NCBI GenBank assembly: GCA_963796275.1
Contig: CAWCKY010000001.1
Coordinates: 960,001-1,024,000 of the forward strand
DNA from: an uncultured Acidobacteriota bacterium
Lineage (GTDB): Bacteria > Acidobacteriota > Blastocatellia > RBC074
Length of the DNA: 64,000 bases
Direction: 5' to 3'
Of this stretch, positions 40,258-49,599 are shown one piece after another. Positions within the stretch are counted from its first letter, which is position 1. Each line of letters begins with the position of its first letter. The notes beneath the pieces are model-generated. The model was not told the origin of the DNA and ran no database searches. It worked only from the letters and a program-made list of their open reading frames with translations. The position numbers were made by a program, and so were the translations under genes.

Positions 40258-40710
40258 CACTGCCAAATTTGCCTTCCAGCGTGCGGTACTGCACTACCTC
40301 CGAAATATGCCGCTCGTCGATTTCGGCCGCGCCTTCCAAATCCGCGATCGTCCGCTGACCTTGAGAATCCTATCGTATGACCTCGCCGACAGGTTTTTAA
40401 TCGCGCGCTCCGGCCGGGAGAGAGGTGGTAGTATTTGCGGATCATTCGCGGCGTCATCTGCGCGTTGCAGAAACATGTTATGCAAAAGTTTGCTGCTGAA
40501 TTTTCCTCGCCCGGCCGATTGCTCGAGGGATTTCGGCTGAGCCCTCCAAAGCTTCCTGCAATGACAACTCGGTCACTTTAACTGCGGGCGCGTCGATGTG
40601 GATGTCTATGCGGTCGAGCAGCGGACCCGAAATCTTCGAGATGTACCGCTGAATCTGTAGCGGCGTGCATTTGCAGTCACGCGACGGATCATTGAAATAG
40701 CCGCACGGCA
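40258..40710 (-). pseudogene. comM: Decayed duplicate of the comM 3' end
   Basis: Aligns by eye with ~48054-48531 ([52 protein letters not shown]..) and carries several deletions. Confidence 0.9.
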
Positions 40711-41213
40711 TATATGCGTTGCGATTTTGCATGCGCAGACTCATTGGCAGAAATCCTGTCGCTATCTTTGTCTAAATTCGTGTTCAAAACCTGACATCTG
40801 AAACGCATCAAGAGGAGAACGAAATCGCTTCGAAATCATTTTCTGAAAGATTCTTGCTAAATTAATCACTCTTTATACAGGGAGAGAGGACGGTGTGATA
40901 GCCATGCCCGAAACAGCTCTCAACCAGTGAAATGGTCGGAATGACTTGAGCGAGAAGGAAAAGGTAACCTGCAAGCGGGAAGACATAAACGGCAGCCGAC
41001 GGAGTGGATTGAGGGTAGCCTGCATATTCCTGCATTCTGTTAAGAAGTTGTTTCGAAGCCATTATCTCGCAGTCCAAATCTGATCTGTGTCATCGGCCCG
41101 TAATAATGAGTTCCCATCTAGCTTTGCGGTATTTGCTTTTCTACATCGAATTTATGCTGTCCAACAGGAATAGTTTACTGAATTGCATTTTAGGAGTATG
41201 CGGCGATCGGCCT

Positions 41214-41313
41214 GCATAACAACCAATTTGGGTTATTTATACTGTCAATGGCTGTATAAGACGTGGGGTTAGCCTTATTATTCGGTACATAGCCATAGAA
41301 TATATAGTTAGGC
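41214..41313 (+). other. Degenerate attC-like site
   Basis: GCATAAC...ATGGCTGTA/TACATAGCCAT stem...GTTAGGC. Confidence 0.45.
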
Positions 41314-41395
41314 GCGCTGAATGAATGGTTGCGCTTGCTGAAAGTAATATCTAAGGAATAAGACCGTTAGGTTAATTCCATGTCCAGGAAACATC

Positions 41396-41704
41396 ATGGC
41401 TTTGTGGCAGACTATTCTTTTCTTTGGGGTTGTGGTGATCATATTTGATGGAGTATGGGCACTGGTAGCCCGAAGCAAAGAATACAACTACGCAAGGGGT
41501 ACGTGGGTAAGCTTGCTTATATACCTGATTGCGGGAGGAGTGACAGCTAGGAGCGGTGGAGTTCTAGCAGGATTACTTGGCGGGTTGATAACTGCTGGTG
41601 TCGAAGCGACCATTGGTTGGTGGATCTCTTGGAAGATCGGTCCTGGGCGTCTGCCAAACACGGATTTGAGGGACACCCTTTACGCACTCTACTCAGTACA
41701 GTAG
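41396..41704 (+). CDS. Small membrane protein cassette (3' end probably frameshifted)
   Basis: Hydrophobic 102-aa ORF after GTTAGGT at 41366; AGGA RBS. Confidence 0.6.
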   Translation: MALWQTILFFGVVVIIFDGVWALVARSKEYNYARGTWVSLLIYLIAGGVTARSGGVLAGLLGGLITAGVEATIGWWISWKIGPGRLPNTDLRDTLYALYSVQ

Positions 41705-41768
41705 GTCTTGTTATGGTTACGGGAGCTGGCTGCGGACTTGTGGGAGCGGAGTAGCCAGTGGAGATACA

Positions 41769-42259
41769 ATGACTGAACAAGAAGAACAATACTTGTATTT
41801 TGTTTCCTGCATCAACGCTCTCAACAATGCTTGGCGGCTTCTGCAAGAAATCAAACGGTGCAAAAGAAATTCGCTTGTAGGCGCTGCTTTTCAATTTGCC
41901 TTAATTGAATACTCAAAACCGTATATAGTCTCCTTTGGGACTGTCTTGAACTCAAAAGGCAAATCCATTCCACGCAAACTCGATGAATCACACATCCCTG
42001 CCACGCATATCCAATTGCATAAGAGAATTATTGATGCGCGAGATCAGATTCATTCCCATTCTGATCTAACAGTAATGGAAGCCAAGCTGTACGTTAAGAG
42101 CAGTCCACAGGAAAGATCGTCGGTACAGTACAAAACAAAATATATGGTATTGAGGAGCTTTCAAACATCGATGCTATCATTGATCTAATAGAGCAAACAC
42201 TCGATAGTATGTATGTGGAAGCTAAAAGATTAGAAGCAGCATTACCAGTCACGTCATGA
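41769..42259 (+). CDS. HEPN-like cassette protein (frameshift near 42110)
   Basis: GGAG RBS; ALIEYSKPY...LHKRIIDARDQIHSHSD (Rx5H); alternate frame continues GKIVGTVQNKIYGIEEL..LEAALPVTS-stop. Confidence 0.6.
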
Positions 42260-42266
42260 TAAGGTG

Positions 42267-42358
42267 GTCTAACAATCGGTTCGACGGGAGCCGCCGAAGC
42301 GGATTTCTCAAGGTTCCATCAGTGTTCGGCGGCGGCCCGATCAACCGGCGCGTTAGGT
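42267..42358 (+). other. attC site
   Basis: GTCTAAC...CGGTTCGACGGG-AGCCGCCGAA...TTCGGCGGC-GGCCCGATCAACCG...GTTAGGT; 92 bp with both core boxes and a bulged stem. Confidence 0.85.
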
Positions 42359-46757: not shown

Positions 46758-46856
46758 TTTTTAGCGACACCCGCACCCCAAAGGGAAGATTTGTCTAGTT
46801 GCCTCTTGATCAACCTATGGAAGGCGGCGGCCGAAATATAGGTTCTTGGTGTTCAC

Positions 46857-46943
46857 ATCTAACAATGTTGTACCGGAGCCGCCGAACAGGGATTTTCTTA
46901 GAAGCGAGGTGTGACAGCGGCTCGGTGAACACGGCCGTTAAGC
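46857..46943 (+). other. attC site
   Basis: ATCTAAC-AATGTTGTACCGGAGCCGC...GCGGCTCGGTGAACAC...GTTAAGC. Confidence 0.85.
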
Positions 46944-47025
46944 CTTGTGTATGACCTTCGCCGAGCGAGCGATAATATTTCTGTTTGACCGTCACGAACA
47001 TTGTATCAATGCACAACTGCCCGCT

Positions 47026-47467
47026 ATGACACTTGATTATGACAAGATGATCGTTCTCGATGCCGAATGATCTGGCTGAGATTGGGATCGGGAATGCGTA
47101 CGAACAACTCCTGCCTAAGTTAAAGGAGTACGTTGCCGATCCGATTCGAGTAGAGGAGATTATTGACTCTGACCTACCTCGCTACGCCATCCGCGCCGGC
47201 GGCAATGAGTACGTTATTTATTCTCCAGATATGTTGACCGACGAGTACGAGAGTTGGGTTATCGCTACGTGCGTGTTCTTCAAGATCGTTAACGACCAGC
47301 TTGCTAACTCTAACGTCAGGTTTTACGCAATCAATGGTGGTAACGATCTGTGCGGAATGTTTCTCACGACTGAGCAGGCAGAGGCATCAAGGGCGACACT
47401 GCCTCGCCCTTTCGACTGGCCGTATCTGCCCGAGCTAATGAGTCCTTGGTATGGCCAACATCACTAG
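47026..47467 (+). CDS. Hypothetical cassette protein (probable frameshift near 47067)
   Basis: MTLDYDKMIVLDAE joins DLAEIGIG...FYAINGGNDL...PWYGQHH if one base is removed. Confidence 0.6.
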
Positions 47468-47539
47468 ACGGCTGCTACTTCTCACTAACCCTTGGATTGC
47501 CGAGGGACAGAGAAAGTAAAACGAAAGGAAAAGCGAATT

Positions 47540-47926
47540 ATGAAGATTTCGAAAGCAGCGGTTCCCGAGAAAATAAATGTTCCAGGTGCAATTGCACGTC
47601 AGGAGTTGAATTTCGGTGACGCTACAGGGTACGGGAAAATTGCTGGAGAATATTTTTCCCTCAAAGCTGGAACCGATATAGCACCATTATTAAGAGGGCT
47701 AGAGGATGACCTCTGTCAGTCTCCTCATTGGGGCTATATGATGGAAGGTGAGGTGACGATCACCTATGCTGACGGACATGAAGAAACCATCTCTGCCAAC
47801 GATCTTTTCTATTGGCCTCCAGGGCACACAGTTAAAGTCGGAAGCGACGCCGAAATCATTCTTTTCAGCCCTCAAGAGGAGCATTGCAAGGTCGTTGATC
47901 ATCTGCACAAACAACTTGTCGGTTGA
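47540..47926 (+). CDS. Cupin-domain protein
   Basis: CQSPHWGYMMEGEV...LFYWPPGHT; AAAGGA RBS. Confidence 0.85.
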   Translation: MKISKAAVPEKINVPGAIARQELNFGDATGYGKIAGEYFSLKAGTDIAPLLRGLEDDLCQSPHWGYMMEGEVTITYADGHEETISANDLFYWPPGHTVKVGSDAEIILFSPQEEHCKVVDHLHKQLVG

Positions 47927-48051
47927 ATGCGAAAAAGATTTCCTTCTACCGAAAAAGCTGCCATAGGTTGCACAAAGCGACCTATTCGGGCAGATCGGTG
48001 ACCTTGGTACGGTTCTGGCCCCGGCGCCTTCAATCGCAGCGATCTTCATAC

Positions 48052-49599
48052 TCACTGCCAGAAGTTACGGTCCAGCGTGCGATACTGCACCGCCTCCGAA
48101 ATATGCCGCTCGTCGATCTCTGCCGCGCCTTCCAAATCCGCGATCGTCCGGCTGACCTTCAGTATCCTATCGTATGCCCTCGCCGACAGGCCATACTTTT
48201 TGATCGCGCGTTCCAGCAGGCTCTGCGGGCCGGGAGCGAGGTGGCAGTATTTGCGGATCATTCGCGGCGTCATCTGAGCGTTGCAGAAAACATGTTCCCC
48301 CGCAAAAGTTTGCTGCTGAATTTTCCTCGCCCGGCTGATTCGCTCGCGGATTTCGGCCGAGCCCTCCAATGCCTCATGCGATGACAACTCGGTAACCTTA
48401 ACTGCGGGCACGTCGATGTGAATGTCTATGCGGTCGAGCAGCGGACCTGAAATCTTCGAGATGTACCGCTGAATCTGCGGCGGCGTGCATTTGCAGTCAC
48501 GCGTCGAATCATTGAAATAGCCGCACGGGCACGGGTTCATAGCCGCAACCAGCATGAAGCTGGCCGGAAAGGTCAACGACATTGAGGCGCGGCTGATGGT
48601 CACTCTCTGATCTTCGAGCGGCTGCCTCAGAACTTCCAGGACATTGCGCTCGAATTCAGGAAGTTCGTCGAGGAAGAGAAGACCGTTATGGGCGAGGCTC
48701 ACTTCGCCGGGTCGCGGAATCGACCCGCCGCCGATCAATCCGGCATCGCTGATTGTGTGATGAGGTGAGCGGAATGGGCGTATCGTGAGCAGCCCGCGCG
48801 AGTCGGTGAAGCCCGCGACGCTGTGGATCTTCGTCATCTCCAATGCCTCTTCGAAGGTCATCGGTGGCAGGATTGATGGAATACGTTGGGCGAGCATCGT
48901 CTTGCCAGATCCCGGCGGTCCGATCATAAGCAGGTTATGGGAGCCGGCCGTAGCGACCTCGATCGCTCGCTTGGCGCTCATCTGCCCGCGCACTTCGCGG
49001 AAATCGACCGGATGTTGATCGGCGCGGCTGAACATCTCTTCAATATCGACACGCATCGGCCGAGGCATCGGATCTGCGTTCAGGAGTGCGATCACTTCAC
49101 GCAGGTCTCTGACCGGATAGACGTCGAGGCCGTTCACGACCGCAGCCTCGCTCGCATTTTCGACCGGCAATAAAAGTCGCTTGAGATTCTTGCCTCTGGC
49201 GGCGATGGCGATTGGCAAAGCGCCTCGCACCGGCCTAACTCTTCCATCGAGCGCCAACTCGCCGATTATCAGCGAGTCATCCAGTCTCTCGCGTTTCAGT
49301 TCTCCGCTTGCTCCGAGTATGCCCACCGCGATCGGCAGGTCGAATGCAGACCCTTCCTTCTTCACATCAGCCGGCGCCAGATTGACGATGGTTTTATAGA
49401 CAGGGAAGATGAGCCCGCTGTTGGTGACGGCTGAACGAATACGCTCACGGCTTTCGCGTACGGCCATATCCGGCAAGCCGACCACTGTCACCATTGGTTC
49501 CTGTTGCGGATCGCCAGTGCGTGGCGCCAGGTGCACTTCGATCTCAACTAGTTCTGCATCGATGCCATAGACGGCGGCGCTGAGGGTTTTATAGAGCAC
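48052..49599 (-). CDS. comM: ComM / YifB Mg-chelatase-like AAA+ ATPase
   Basis: [75 protein letters not shown] before GTG 49599. Confidence 0.96.

What the first reader, a model, noticed from the sequence alone, without database searches (positions are those of the whole stretch)
40258..48531. Island in comM that leaves the gene intact through a ~460-bp duplicated 3' end broken at the CPCG motif
Seen: reading along the minus strand, intact comM, ~7.3 kb of foreign DNA, then a decayed second comM 3' end whose homology starts abruptly at C-P-C-G (40710 versus 48531). Established: comM/yifB is a recurrent integration target, and insertion normally disrupts it and lowers natural transformation. 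Inference: this element brought a replacement 3' segment, as tRNA-targeting phages do but far longer, preserving ComM. No recombinase remains in the island.
Basis: partly seen in the sequence, partly recalled or inferred. Interest (0 to 1): 0.72.

Follow-up and report, generated by a model that had tools for sequence, protein, structure and literature searches.

The report
Recombinase scar island sparing comM
A 7.3-kb foreign island sits inside the competence gene comM at a serine-recombinase target site, yet the gene stays whole because a second copy of its last 160 codons came in with the island, and relatives carry up to seven such copies in a row.

Summary
An intact comM (48052-49749, minus strand) is followed by a 7,341-bp low-GC island, then a decayed copy of the last ~160 codons (40257-40710). 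Homology starts at the TG of the first Cys codon of C-P-C-G (48531 and 40710) and ends at the stop codon.

The fragment's junction carries the "P-arm" of a large-serine-recombinase (LSR) attachment site. In 4 of 4 relatives where comM is split at these codons, an LSR gene abuts the 5' piece, and palindromic attP arms can be rebuilt.

Recombinase-less islands of the window's type recur in at least 9 other genomes: intact comM, cargo, HTH gene, P-arm, orphan 3' end. One complete genome has six fragments over ~297 kb. In relatives the displaced copies differ from the intact one almost only at third codon positions, so working 3' ends were imported.

Best reading: passenger units carried in by LSR elements (accretion and cis-mobilisation) and left behind when the recombinase core excised. 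How the first unit arose is unexplained.

The window's copy is old and immobile. This is a new variant of known target-regenerating island arrays (ssrA islands, SCCmec, icd/e14).

The parts
48052..49749 (-). Intact comM (yifB) ORF. The real start is probably near 49599, because relatives align from about aa 45-51.
   Evidence: Pfam Mg_chelatase 7.9e-100, ChlI 1.7e-41, Mg_chelatase_C 8.5e-33. TIGR00368 631 bits, above the cut-off.
48052..48531 (-). The functional 3' module of comM (first Cys codon of C-P-C-G to the stop). This is the repeated unit in its working copy.
48510..48550 (-). attB-type site inside the intact gene (B-arm, TG at 48531-48530, B'-arm). It encodes A-M-N-P-C-P-C-G.
   Evidence: Sequence. 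The same codons are the break point in split genes of G021, G030, G295 and G339.
40736..48051 (.). Island body (low GC). All listed ORFs run opposite to comM. No recombinase, and no recognisable HTH gene.
40711..40735 (-). P-arm of a large-serine-recombinase attP, joined through TG (40710-40709) to the comM fragment. This makes an attR-type junction.
   Evidence: Alignment with the junctions of G021, G020 and G033, G069, and G088, G148 and G295. The 16-nt pattern matches exactly only here in the 9.46-Mb genome.
40257..40710 (-). Displaced, decayed comM 3' end (ex-stop TGG at 40257-40259). It has 7 indel events, 48 substitutions and in-frame stops.
44382..44930 (+). Island ORF, DUF6933. It matches the candidate defence family PDC-S63.
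   Evidence: Pfam 1.7e-31. PADLOC 2.8e-13.
45061..45783 (+). Island ORF with a DUF4261 C-terminal domain.
   Evidence: Pfam 1e-07, 32.3 bits.
47492..47926 (+). Island ORF, cupin-like (below the Pfam cut-off). It is the last gene before the comM stop.
   Evidence: Cupin_2 24.8 bits against a cut-off of 27.2.
41396..43270 (+). Four island ORFs of unknown family (102, 139, 204 and 87 aa).
   Evidence: No Pfam, PADLOC or NCBIfam hits.
46173..47467 (+). Two island ORFs of unknown family (a 194-aa Cys-rich one and a 135-aa one).
39234..40121 (-). Alpha/beta hydrolase downstream of the fragment (flank).
   Evidence: Pfam Hydrolase_4 3e-22. It is not next to comM in any relative examined.
49979..51754 (-). 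SLT/LysM transglycosylase, the conserved upstream neighbour of comM.
   Evidence: Pfam. It is present upstream of comM in 11 of 29 relatives' loci within the 1.5-kb flank.

Best explanation
The window holds one old, now immobile unit of a recurrent island type.

Shown:
- A family of large serine recombinases (LSRs) targets the codons for C-P-C-G in comM and crosses over at the TG of the first Cys codon.
- The orphan fragment at 40257-40710 is joined to the element's P-arm. It is therefore the 3' end that was resident when an element of this family recombined there (an attR junction).
- comM is whole because a second, working 3' module (48052-48531) lies between the 5' part and the island.

Inferred: the unit [3' module + cargo + (HTH) + P-arm] did not bring its own recombinase. 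It travelled as a passenger behind a recombinase-bearing element.
- In a donor, the LSR element sat in the intact attB of such an array and excised using the outer attR, taking the unit along.
- It then integrated canonically (attP x attB) into this lineage's comM.
- The recombinase core later excised through its own inner attR.
- That rebuilt attB and an intact comM from the host 5' part and the imported 3' module. The cargo and the displaced native 3' end stayed behind.

Since then the fragment has decayed, the HTH gene has been lost, and no LSR is found in the genome.
For: Junction:
- A P-arm is conserved in register next to TG in G000, G021, G020 and G033 A/B, at five G069 junctions, and in G088, G148 and G295.
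- The exact 16-nt pattern occurs only at the junction in G000.
- G021 attL carries the inverted partner arm, giving a palindromic attP (CAACTA-TG-TAGTTG). G295 attL and its P-arm 155 kb away pair likewise.

Dichotomy between split and intact genes:
- 4 of 4 split-comM genomes have an LSR gene abutting the 5' piece.
- Of 5 intact-plus-fragment genomes searched for PF07508, 4 have none anywhere and G069 has one 4 Mb away.
- No tyrosine integrase lies in the G069 array or in the window.

The same anatomy without a recombinase occurs in G184, G080, G140 and G193 and in G069.

Imported working alleles:
- Third-position-dominated differences: G184 [5,1,44], G140 [9,6,40], G193 [6,4,22], G080 [2,2,10], G069 intact/f2 [5,5,33].
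- G033: 38 synonymous to 9 non-synonymous, and 45 to 9.
- The G069 copies fall in two clades with support 100/99 and 99/96.

Accretion:
- G295 has an LSR element with a comM 3' remnant inside it and the true attR 155 kb away.
- G021 has a split gene plus several 3' copies.

Precedent: serine-recombinase ssrA islands in tandem, some without integration modules, are read as cis-mobilisable by accretion (PMC3146451, passages).
Against: - No genome examined shows the predicted intermediate with an intact inner attR (5'-attL-LSR...P-TG-complete 3' module-cargo-P-TG-fragment). In G295 the inner copy is truncated at about aa 420 and lacks a P-arm, and G021 is too fragmented to tell.
- The model moves existing units but does not explain how a first unit arose, that is, how a 3' module came to lie to the left of the cargo.
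- Left ends of islands are not conserved, and in near-identical pairs (G080 at 97%, G069 f4/f5 at 98%) similarity stops exactly at the stop codon. That would fit a built-in module better than a passively captured one.
- In G000 itself the two copies were near-identical at the event. A foreign origin of the intact 3' end is therefore not shown here.
- In G069 the 5' part groups with G019, whose 3' end is of the C-N-C-G type. The tree therefore does not settle which type is native there.
Confidence: 0.45

Rival explanations
1. Gene-sparing satellite. The unit is itself the mobile entity, a recombinase-less element whose donor site is P-TG-B' followed by a built-in comM 3' module. An LSR supplied in trans by a helper element recombines this attR-like site directly with attB. 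That regenerates attB and the whole gene in one step.
For: - The repeated unit is bounded exactly by the crossover TG and the stop codon in all 7 array genomes compared, as expected of a built-in module.
- The HTH gene and P-arm are conserved over about 440 nt across genera, and the HTH ORF is often intact.
- Serine-recombinase systems that regenerate their target and share one half-site between donor and target are known: the ssrA islands and SCCmec (recalled).
- The G021 LSR's best, sub-threshold NCBIfam matches are CcrB and CcrC.
Against: - From recalled literature on Bxb1 and phiC31, canonical LSRs do not recombine attR with attB.
- By my reading of the sequences, the B' arm has B-type rather than P-type spacing of the outer motif.
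- All 4 recombinase-bearing elements have a distinct P' arm and split the gene.
- No circular form was observed.
Confidence: 0.22
2. Spread by homologous recombination. After one rare founding event, arrays move between related strains by RecA-dependent recombination (natural transformation, conjugation or transduction). The comM 5' part serves as the left arm and the orphan 3' fragment as the right arm, or a looped-out circle inserts Campbell-style. No recombinase is then needed for this window's event.
For: - In G000 the two copies were near-identical at the time of the event (29:5 polarity), as expected from a conspecific donor.
- There is no LSR in the genome.
- The arms are adjacent in a naive recipient, so a double crossover would insert exactly the observed segment (inference).
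- Within-genome copies usually cluster together.
Against: - The G069 copies differ by 32% nt (68.1% identity). The junction signature also occurs in records labelled as other phyla, beside comM pieces only 46-58% identical to G000's protein. That is too diverged for efficient homologous recombination.
- This model does not explain the founding event.
- Mosaic 3' copies would be expected from crossovers at variable points. Differences are mostly spread evenly, though G193 shows one long identical tract.
Confidence: 0.2
3. Local repair. An LSR element split comM, and the gene was then mended in place. The repair was break-induced copying from a sister chromosome, or one-sided homologous plus illegitimate recombination with a naive allele. 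It replaced the P' arm and the recombinase gene with a fresh 3' end.
For: - The copies were near-identical at time zero in G000.
- All island genes run in the orientation seen in LSR elements, with the 3' module sitting where P' and the recombinase would be.
Against: - The junction would fall at a random point past the stop codon. Instead homology ends within about 5 nt of the stop in every genome compared.
- In relatives the copies are distinct alleles, not sister copies.
- No partial recombinase remnants were found in any island.
Confidence: 0.1
4. Assembly artefact: a chimeric join or a collapsed repeat.
For: The genome is a metagenome-type assembly (94.7% complete, 5.2% contamination), and the P-arm junction is not covered by the only public run found.
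Against: - The copies differ by 10% and by 7 indels, so they are not a collapsed repeat.
- A contig bridges the comM-stop/island junction with 0 differences.
- The same architecture occurs in at least 9 other assemblies, including a single-contig genome.
Confidence: 0.02

Closest known systems
Dehalococcoides ssrA-specific genomic islands (serine recombinase DsiB, CcrB-like); PMC3146451, passages read
   Same: - Tandem islands lie downstream of a single-copy gene that stays intact.
- Each island is bounded by a repeat of the gene's 3' end.
- The large serine recombinase gene lies next to attL on the reverse strand.
- Several islands lack the integration module and are read as cis-mobilisable by accretion.
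   Different: - The repeat there is 20 bp of an RNA gene. Here it is about 480 bp, or 160 codons, of a protein gene.
- There the recombinase-bearing islands regenerate the target. Here all 4 recombinase-bearing elements split it, and only recombinase-less units sit behind an intact gene.
SCCmec and SCC composite islands at orfX/rlmH (CcrAB/CcrC large serine recombinases); recalled, with NCBIfam similarity
   Same: - A large serine recombinase is involved.
- The target is at the 3' end of a conserved gene that stays functional.
- Elements accumulate in tandem and use alternative att sites.
   Different: - Only a few codons are supplied by the SCC element.
- The G021 LSR scores far below the CcrB cut-off (131 bits against 900), so it is not a member of that family.
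Phage 21 / e14 integration into icd with an element-borne replacement 3' end (recalled)
   Same: - A protein-coding target is kept intact by an element-borne copy of its 3' end.
- The displaced native 3' end remains as a pseudogene at the far end.
- Homology runs from the crossover to the end of the gene.
   Different: - That system uses a tyrosine integrase encoded by the element itself.
- The module is about 165 bp.
- No long tandem arrays are known there.
ICESt1/ICESt3 and CIMEs of Streptococcus thermophilus: accretion and cis-mobilisation (cited within PMC3146451 and the listings; mechanism recalled)
   Same: - Recombinase-less units flanked by att sites sit in tandem with a recombinase-bearing element.
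- The units can leave with that element through alternative att pairs.
   Different: - That system uses a tyrosine recombinase.
- Its att sites share a core, so every junction can be reused.
- Its target is the 3' end of fda with a short repeat.
Tn7-like AbaR-type islands in comM of Acinetobacter (PMC11014353 and PMC10293859, search listings only)
   Same: The same gene, comM, is the dedicated target of mobile elements.
   Different: - Those are transposons (TnsABC plus a target selector) that disrupt comM.
- No transposase is present in this island.
- No 3'-end replacement is involved.
Listeria phage A118 and other serine-integrase prophages that split competence or sporulation genes (PMC3556126, search listing only; rest recalled)
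   Same: A large serine integrase splits a competence-related gene at a fixed site with a 2-nt crossover, as in G021, G030, G295 and G339.
   Different: Those leave no regenerated gene and no arrays of displaced 3' ends.

Membership tests
ComM / YifB Mg-chelatase-like AAA+ ATPase (intact gene 48052-49749) | Full-length match to the family model above its curated cut-off, with the N-terminal ChlI, AAA+ and C-terminal lid domains | tested here: met
   TIGR00368 631.1 bits against a cut-off of 362.4. PF13541, PF01078 and PF13335 are all above their cut-offs. Walker A GPPGSGKT and the Cys cluster are present in the translation.
Large-serine-recombinase integrative element (attL/attR scar) | A junction made of an element half-site (P-arm) joined through a 2-nt crossover to the host half-site, at the same target position as recombinase-bearing relatives | tested here: met
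   The P-arm at 40711-40735 is in register with those of G021, G020, G033, G069, G088, G148 and G295. The pattern matches exactly only once in the genome.
Large-serine-recombinase integrative element (attL/attR scar) | A large serine recombinase gene (Resolvase plus Recombinase domains) inside the element next to attL | tested here: not met
   None in the island and none found in the genome. It is present in 4 of 4 split-gene relatives.
Large-serine-recombinase integrative element (attL/attR scar) | A partner junction attL (B-TG-P') at the other end of the element | tested here: not met
   The other end is an uninterrupted attB-type sequence inside the intact comM. No second P-arm-like site was found in the window with the 21-nt motif at up to 3 mismatches.
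Target-gene 3'-end replacement islands (tRNA / ssrA / icd type) | An island bounded by the intact target gene and a direct repeat of its 3' end, with the repeat running from the crossover to the gene's end | tested here: met
Target-gene 3'-end replacement islands (tRNA / ssrA / icd type) | The element's own integrase gene adjacent to the regenerated target gene | tested here: not met
   The first gene after the comM stop is a cupin-like ORF. No integrase of either class lies in the window's island or in the G069 array.
Cis-mobilisable elements / accretion arrays | Units flanked by att-type sites, without recombination or transfer genes, occurring in tandem at the site used by a recombinase-bearing element | tested here: met
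   G069 has six fragments over about 297 kb. G033, G088, G140 and G158 have multiple copies. G295 is a composite.
Cis-mobilisable elements / accretion arrays | Excision and transfer together with a helper element through alternative att pairs | not testable with these tools
   This needs detection of circular junctions or mating assays.
Tn7-like comM-targeting transposons (AbaR type) | TnsA/B/C transposition genes and a target selector in the element | tested here: not met
   No transposase or AAA regulator family was found in the 11 island ORFs scanned.

The most novel reading that the evidence does not exclude
A family of recombinase-less satellite islands has evolved a built-in, 160-codon comM 3' module fused to a serine-recombinase half-site. 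A helper's large serine recombinase inserts them by a non-canonical attR-like x attB reaction that regenerates both the gene and the target. Because ComM drives natural transformation, these satellites would keep the host able to take up and recombine DNA, while the helpers switch that off. Repeated rounds would build arrays of hundreds of kilobases downstream of comM across several phyla.
Probability: 0.2. Interest if true: 0.85.

Novelty: new variant of a known kind. Interest (0 to 1): 0.68.

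Why it matters
comM encodes the helicase that drives integration of incoming DNA in natural transformation. Mobile elements that split it are thought to protect themselves from being cured by transformation.

Here the same codons of comM are used by at least two distant serine-recombinase lineages. They are found both in a split, recombinase-bearing state and in a restored state with a trail of displaced 3' ends.

That trail is a datable record of successive insertions. 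In the genomes surveyed it marks a major site of genome growth: up to about 297 kb in one genome, with cargo ranging from defence-like genes to transporters and regulators.

It also poses a concrete mechanistic question for serine recombinases, which are widely used as genome-engineering tools. How does a system with canonical attP/attB sites end up regenerating its target with an imported 480-bp coding module?

Tried and rejected
- Synteny test for the native context: the hydrolase is not next to comM in 0 of 29 relatives' loci. It is never on the comM contig in the 22 relatives that have it. Around the same-genus G002 hydrolase there is no comM, TonB or receptor. The test is therefore uninformative.
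- Island genes downstream of comM in G013 and G004: none found.
- Phylogeny to tell which G000 copy is native: the two are sisters (100/100), so it is uninformative.
- HTH remnant in the G000 island: only insignificant tblastn hits (E >= 0.06). Nucleotide similarity to other elements is limited to about 44 nt at the junction.
- A second P- or P'-arm in the window: none with the 21-nt motif at up to 3 mismatches. A weak resemblance about 80 nt after the comM stop, seen by eye, was judged to be chance.
- In-situ duplication as a general explanation: rejected by the third-position pattern in relatives.
- One-sided illegitimate repair as a general explanation: rejected by the stop-codon boundary.
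- Public reads: only one run held 16% of the sampled words. It is low-coverage contigs that do not cover 40468-41201, so the P-arm junction is unverified.
- Earlier notes of this scan: none for this genome.
- Literature: comM together with serine recombinase, attB, genomic island, Acidobacteria or prophage found no description of this system. Papers behind paywalls were not searched.

Full report
1. THE OBSERVATION

On the minus strand the window has an ORF at 48052-49749. It is a full-length ComM/YifB:
- It scores 631 bits for TIGR00368 against a cut-off of 362.
- It has all three Pfam domains.

A direct repeat links 48062-48528 to 40266-40708. It falls in five blocks of 90-97% identity, and the spacing drifts from 7796 to 7820 nt, which means indels.

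In the pairwise alignment the similarity starts abruptly at ...TG-CC(C)G-TGC-GGC and ends at the stop codon, which is TGA in the intact copy and TGG in the fragment. In window coordinates the TG is at 48531-48530 and at 40710-40709. The motif N-P-C-P-C-G-Y-F begins at residue 405 of the ORF.

The fragment carries 7 indel events and 48 substitutions, and in-frame stops. Only these two copies exist in the 9.46-Mb genome.

The 7,341 bp between them are 46.0% GC, against 54.4% in the flanks (profile). All ORFs there run opposite to comM. They include a DUF6933 protein that also matches the candidate defence family PDC-S63, a DUF4261 protein, and a cupin-like ORF below the Pfam cut-off. The others match nothing in Pfam, PADLOC or NCBIfam.

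No recombinase of any kind was found, and six-frame searches with two serine recombinases found no remnant in the window.

One public soil-metagenome run may be the source sample, so it is not independent support. It holds short contigs at 99% identity or better. One bridges the comM-stop/island junction and one covers the distal end of the fragment. The P-arm junction is not covered.

2. THE BREAK POINT IS A SERINE-RECOMBINASE TARGET

Among 40 relatives, orphan comM 3' pieces beginning at residues 402-407 turned up in G020, G030 and G033, and comM is cut at residue 409 in G021.

In all four genomes where comM is split at these codons, a large serine recombinase (LSR) gene abuts the 5' piece and converges on it:

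| Genome | LSR evidence |
|---|---|
| G030 | 519 aa, Resolvase plus Recombinase domains |
| G021 | 500 aa, beside TrwB/TraG-like coupling proteins |
| G295 | Recombinase domain beside the 5' piece |
| G339 | Recombinase domain beside the 5' piece |

These LSRs form two lineages. G021 and G295 are 60% identical, G030 and G339 are 53% identical, and the two lineages are about 25% identical to each other.

In G021 the sequence after the 5' piece is the inverted repeat of the sequence in front of an orphan 3' piece. Together they rebuild a palindromic attP with TG as the crossover (...CAACTA-TG-TAGTTG...). G295 shows the same arm family, with its partner P-arm 155 kb away. G339 has a different arm pair.

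The island-side sequence next to the window's fragment carries this P-arm in the same register. A 16-nt pattern taken from it matches exactly only at 40715-40730 in the whole genome. So the fragment's junction is an attR: an element half-site joined to the host half-site.

That is also the argument that the fragment, not the intact copy, was the resident 3' end when the recombination happened.

3. THE WINDOW'S ARCHITECTURE RECURS, WITHOUT A RECOMBINASE

A class-wide survey gave these counts:
- 380 of 401 genomes have comM.
- With the 3' part alone as query, 378 of 401 have a match. By my count of the table, about 25 have two or more 3' matches. Several of these are pieces of one gene (G005, G078, G238, G390, G412, G346), and one is two full genes (G275).

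I examined the following at sequence level:

| Genome | What is there |
|---|---|
| G069 (single contig) | Intact comM followed on the same strand by fragments f1-f6 over about 297 kb. Five have the P-arm plus about 90-440 nt of conserved sequence that encodes an inward-reading XRE-type HTH protein. |
| G184, G080, G140, G193 | Intact comM, then 4.1, 12, 28 and 3.3 kb of cargo, then HTH, P-arm and fragment, all on one contig. |
| G033, G088, G148 | Fragments with the P-arm (and the HTH gene in G088 and G148). The intact gene lies on another contig, so adjacency is not shown. |
| G020 | A fragment with HTH and P-arm. No 5' part was found. |

Cargo is heterogeneous: glycosyltransferases, two-component systems, TonB receptors with ECF sigma factors and kinases, a TIR protein, a giant HYR protein, and IS elements.

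No LSR is present in any of these islands. PF07508 is not found anywhere in G000, G033, G088 or G148, and in G069 it occurs only 4 Mb from the array. No tyrosine integrase lies in the G069 array or in the window.

So split genes go with a recombinase, and restored genes go without one.

4. THE INCOMING 3' ENDS WERE WORKING ALLELES FROM ELSEWHERE

Between the intact and displaced copies in relatives, substitutions sit almost only at third codon positions, and there are few or no frameshifts:

| Pair | Substitutions by codon position (1, 2, 3) |
|---|---|
| G184 | 5, 1, 44 |
| G140 | 9, 6, 40 |
| G193 | 6, 4, 22 |
| G080 | 2, 2, 10 |
| G069 intact / f2 | 5, 5, 33 |
| G069 f3 / f6 | 7, 5, 24 |

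In G033, synonymous to non-synonymous codon differences are 38:9 and 45:9.

In a tree of 3' parts, the G069 copies fall in two clades:
- The intact copy, f1 and f2 group with G001, G006 and the G020 fragment (support 100/99).
- f3 and f6 group with G003 (support 99/96).
- The two types are only 68% identical.

These cannot be in-situ duplicates. The tree does not say which type is native in G069, because its 5' part groups with G019 (82/94), whose 3' end is near the first clade.

Across all seven array genomes compared, similarity between copies stops within about 5 nt of the stop codon. There is one exception of 28 nt. This holds even for pairs that are 97-98% identical in the last 60 nt, and the stop codons themselves differ.

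5. THE WINDOW'S OWN COPY IS OLD

In G000 the two copies are sisters (100/100). Nearly all the divergence lies on the fragment's branch (0.12 against 0.003).
- At 29 of 45 differing sites the intact copy agrees with six outgroups, at 5 the fragment does, and 11 are ambiguous.
- The fragment's changes lean from GC to AT, 15 against 8.
- Substitutions by codon position are 11, 10 and 27.

This fits two nearly identical copies at the time of the event, meaning a conspecific donor or local copying. Afterwards the fragment decayed neutrally and the working copy stayed under purifying selection.

The HTH gene is no longer recognisable, and only about 44 nt at the junction still resemble other elements.

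6. MECHANISM

Shown:
- The target site and the crossover position.
- The attR nature of the fragment junction.
- The recombinase-less state of such islands.
- The import of foreign functional 3' ends in relatives.
- The growth of arrays.

Inferred: how a recombinase with a canonical attP, which splits the gene, leaves a whole gene behind.

The reading I favour uses only canonical reactions:
- A recombinase-bearing element integrates into the intact attB of an existing array.
- It excises with the outer attR, so it carries [3' module + cargo + HTH + P-arm] along.
- It integrates into a new comM.
- The core later leaves through its own inner attR.
- That rebuilds attB and comM from the host 5' part and the imported module, and strands the cargo and the displaced host 3' end.

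Support for this reading:
- G295 has an element with a comM 3' remnant inside it.
- G021 has a split gene plus several 3' copies.
- Serine-recombinase ssrA islands in Dehalococcoides are a precedent. There, tandem islands without integration modules were interpreted as cis-mobilised by accretion (PMC3146451, passages).

Weaknesses:
- I did not find the intermediate with an intact inner attR.
- The model does not create a first unit.
- The sharp boundary at the stop codon, together with unconserved left ends, looks more like a built-in module.

Rivals:
- Direct insertion of recombinase-less satellites through an attR-like x attB reaction.
- Spread by homologous recombination, using the 5' part and the fragment as arms. 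This fits G000's near-identical copies. It does not fit the 32% divergence within G069 or the cross-phylum occurrences.
- Local repair, which the stop-codon boundary and the allele patterns in relatives argue against.

7. DISTRIBUTION AND NOVELTY

A collection-wide scan for the junction signature found 8 stretches. Three belong to genomes already studied. The others are in records titled Gemmatimonadetes, Candidatus Rokubacteria, Ignavibacteriae and Terracidiphilus. These are submitters' labels and were not checked.

In those records comM is either followed by orphan 3' pieces (G443, G446) or split (G444).

Searches for comM together with serine recombinase, attB, genomic island, Acidobacteria or prophage found no description of this system. 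The comM-targeting elements that surfaced are Tn7-like transposons of Acinetobacter (search listings only).

I file this as a new variant of known target-regenerating island arrays (ssrA islands, SCCmec at orfX, icd/e14). It is unusual in three ways:
- The coding module is long, about 160 codons.
- It is separated from the recombinase.
- The arrays are large.

8. USE OF UNPUBLISHED GENOMES

G004 contributes only to the negative synteny checks and to one row. G141, G205, G296, G357, G373, G415 and G426 are among the genomes counted, and G296 is one of the roughly 25 with two 3' matches. No other claim rests on them.

Noticed in passing
G181:C2:528321-541696; G207:C8:801141-805723; G058:C2:2240155-2245587: This looks like a mirror image of the finding. 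Four tandem comM 5' fragments (about aa 50-311, roughly 3 kb apart) lie upstream of an intact comM in G181, and single upstream 5' fragments occur in G207 and G058. That suggests a second hotspot near residue 311 where the 5' part is replaced.
   Followed up: no
G346:C4:34319-43705; G078:C122:25116-26435; G390:C235:1-1212; G238:C54: comM is also interrupted at other positions in this class: near residue 274 in G346 (with an 8-kb insert), about 265 in G238, and about 450 in G078 and G390. The gene therefore has several insertion sites.
   Followed up: no
G275:C7:909306-929750: Two full-length comM copies lie 19 kb apart on one strand.
   Followed up: no
L040 (G020:C46) 3490-4044; L055 5284-5808; L043 117-587: The HTH ORF at the island end starts inside the P-arm (N-terminus S-P-F-C-K-L-T-L). 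In G020 it stays open for about 30 more codons across the junction into the antisense strand of the comM fragment. Its upstream part would therefore differ between the integrated and excised states.
   Followed up: partly
L040 (G020:C46:1-16000): In G020 no comM 5' part was found in a 97%-complete genome. The conserved upstream SLT/LysM gene lies 7 kb away on the opposite strand from the orphan fragment, which suggests an inversion or rearrangement at the site.
   Followed up: no
window 44382-45783; L075 15159-16643: Some island cargo looks defence-related. The window has a DUF6933/PDC-S63 protein next to a DUF4261 protein, and the 3.3-kb island of G193 has a TIR-domain protein.
   Followed up: partly
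comM residues 407-422 in relatives: The Cys cluster at the target comes in two forms. C-P-C-G-Y-F-N-D...C-K-C is the commoner one. C-N-C-G-F-[HY]-G-D...C-R-C occurs in G001, G006, G019, G020 and most G069 copies. These forms do not follow the genus labels.
   Followed up: partly
G069 array, fragment f1 (G069:C1:6475670-6477394): Fragment f1 is itself interrupted by about 1.2 kb of inserted DNA. Fragment f4 has an internal deletion, and f5 keeps only the last 54 codons.
   Followed up: no
window 49600-49749: The listed comM ORF has an N-terminal extension of about 50 codons that no relative matches (alignments start at aa 45-51). The true start is probably near 49599.
   Followed up: no
L037/L038 (G033:C22:1-34000): The two G033 islands each carry a paralogous cassette of an ECF sigma factor, a Ser/Thr kinase with a beta-propeller, and a TonB-dependent receptor, just upstream of the P-arm.
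   Followed up: no
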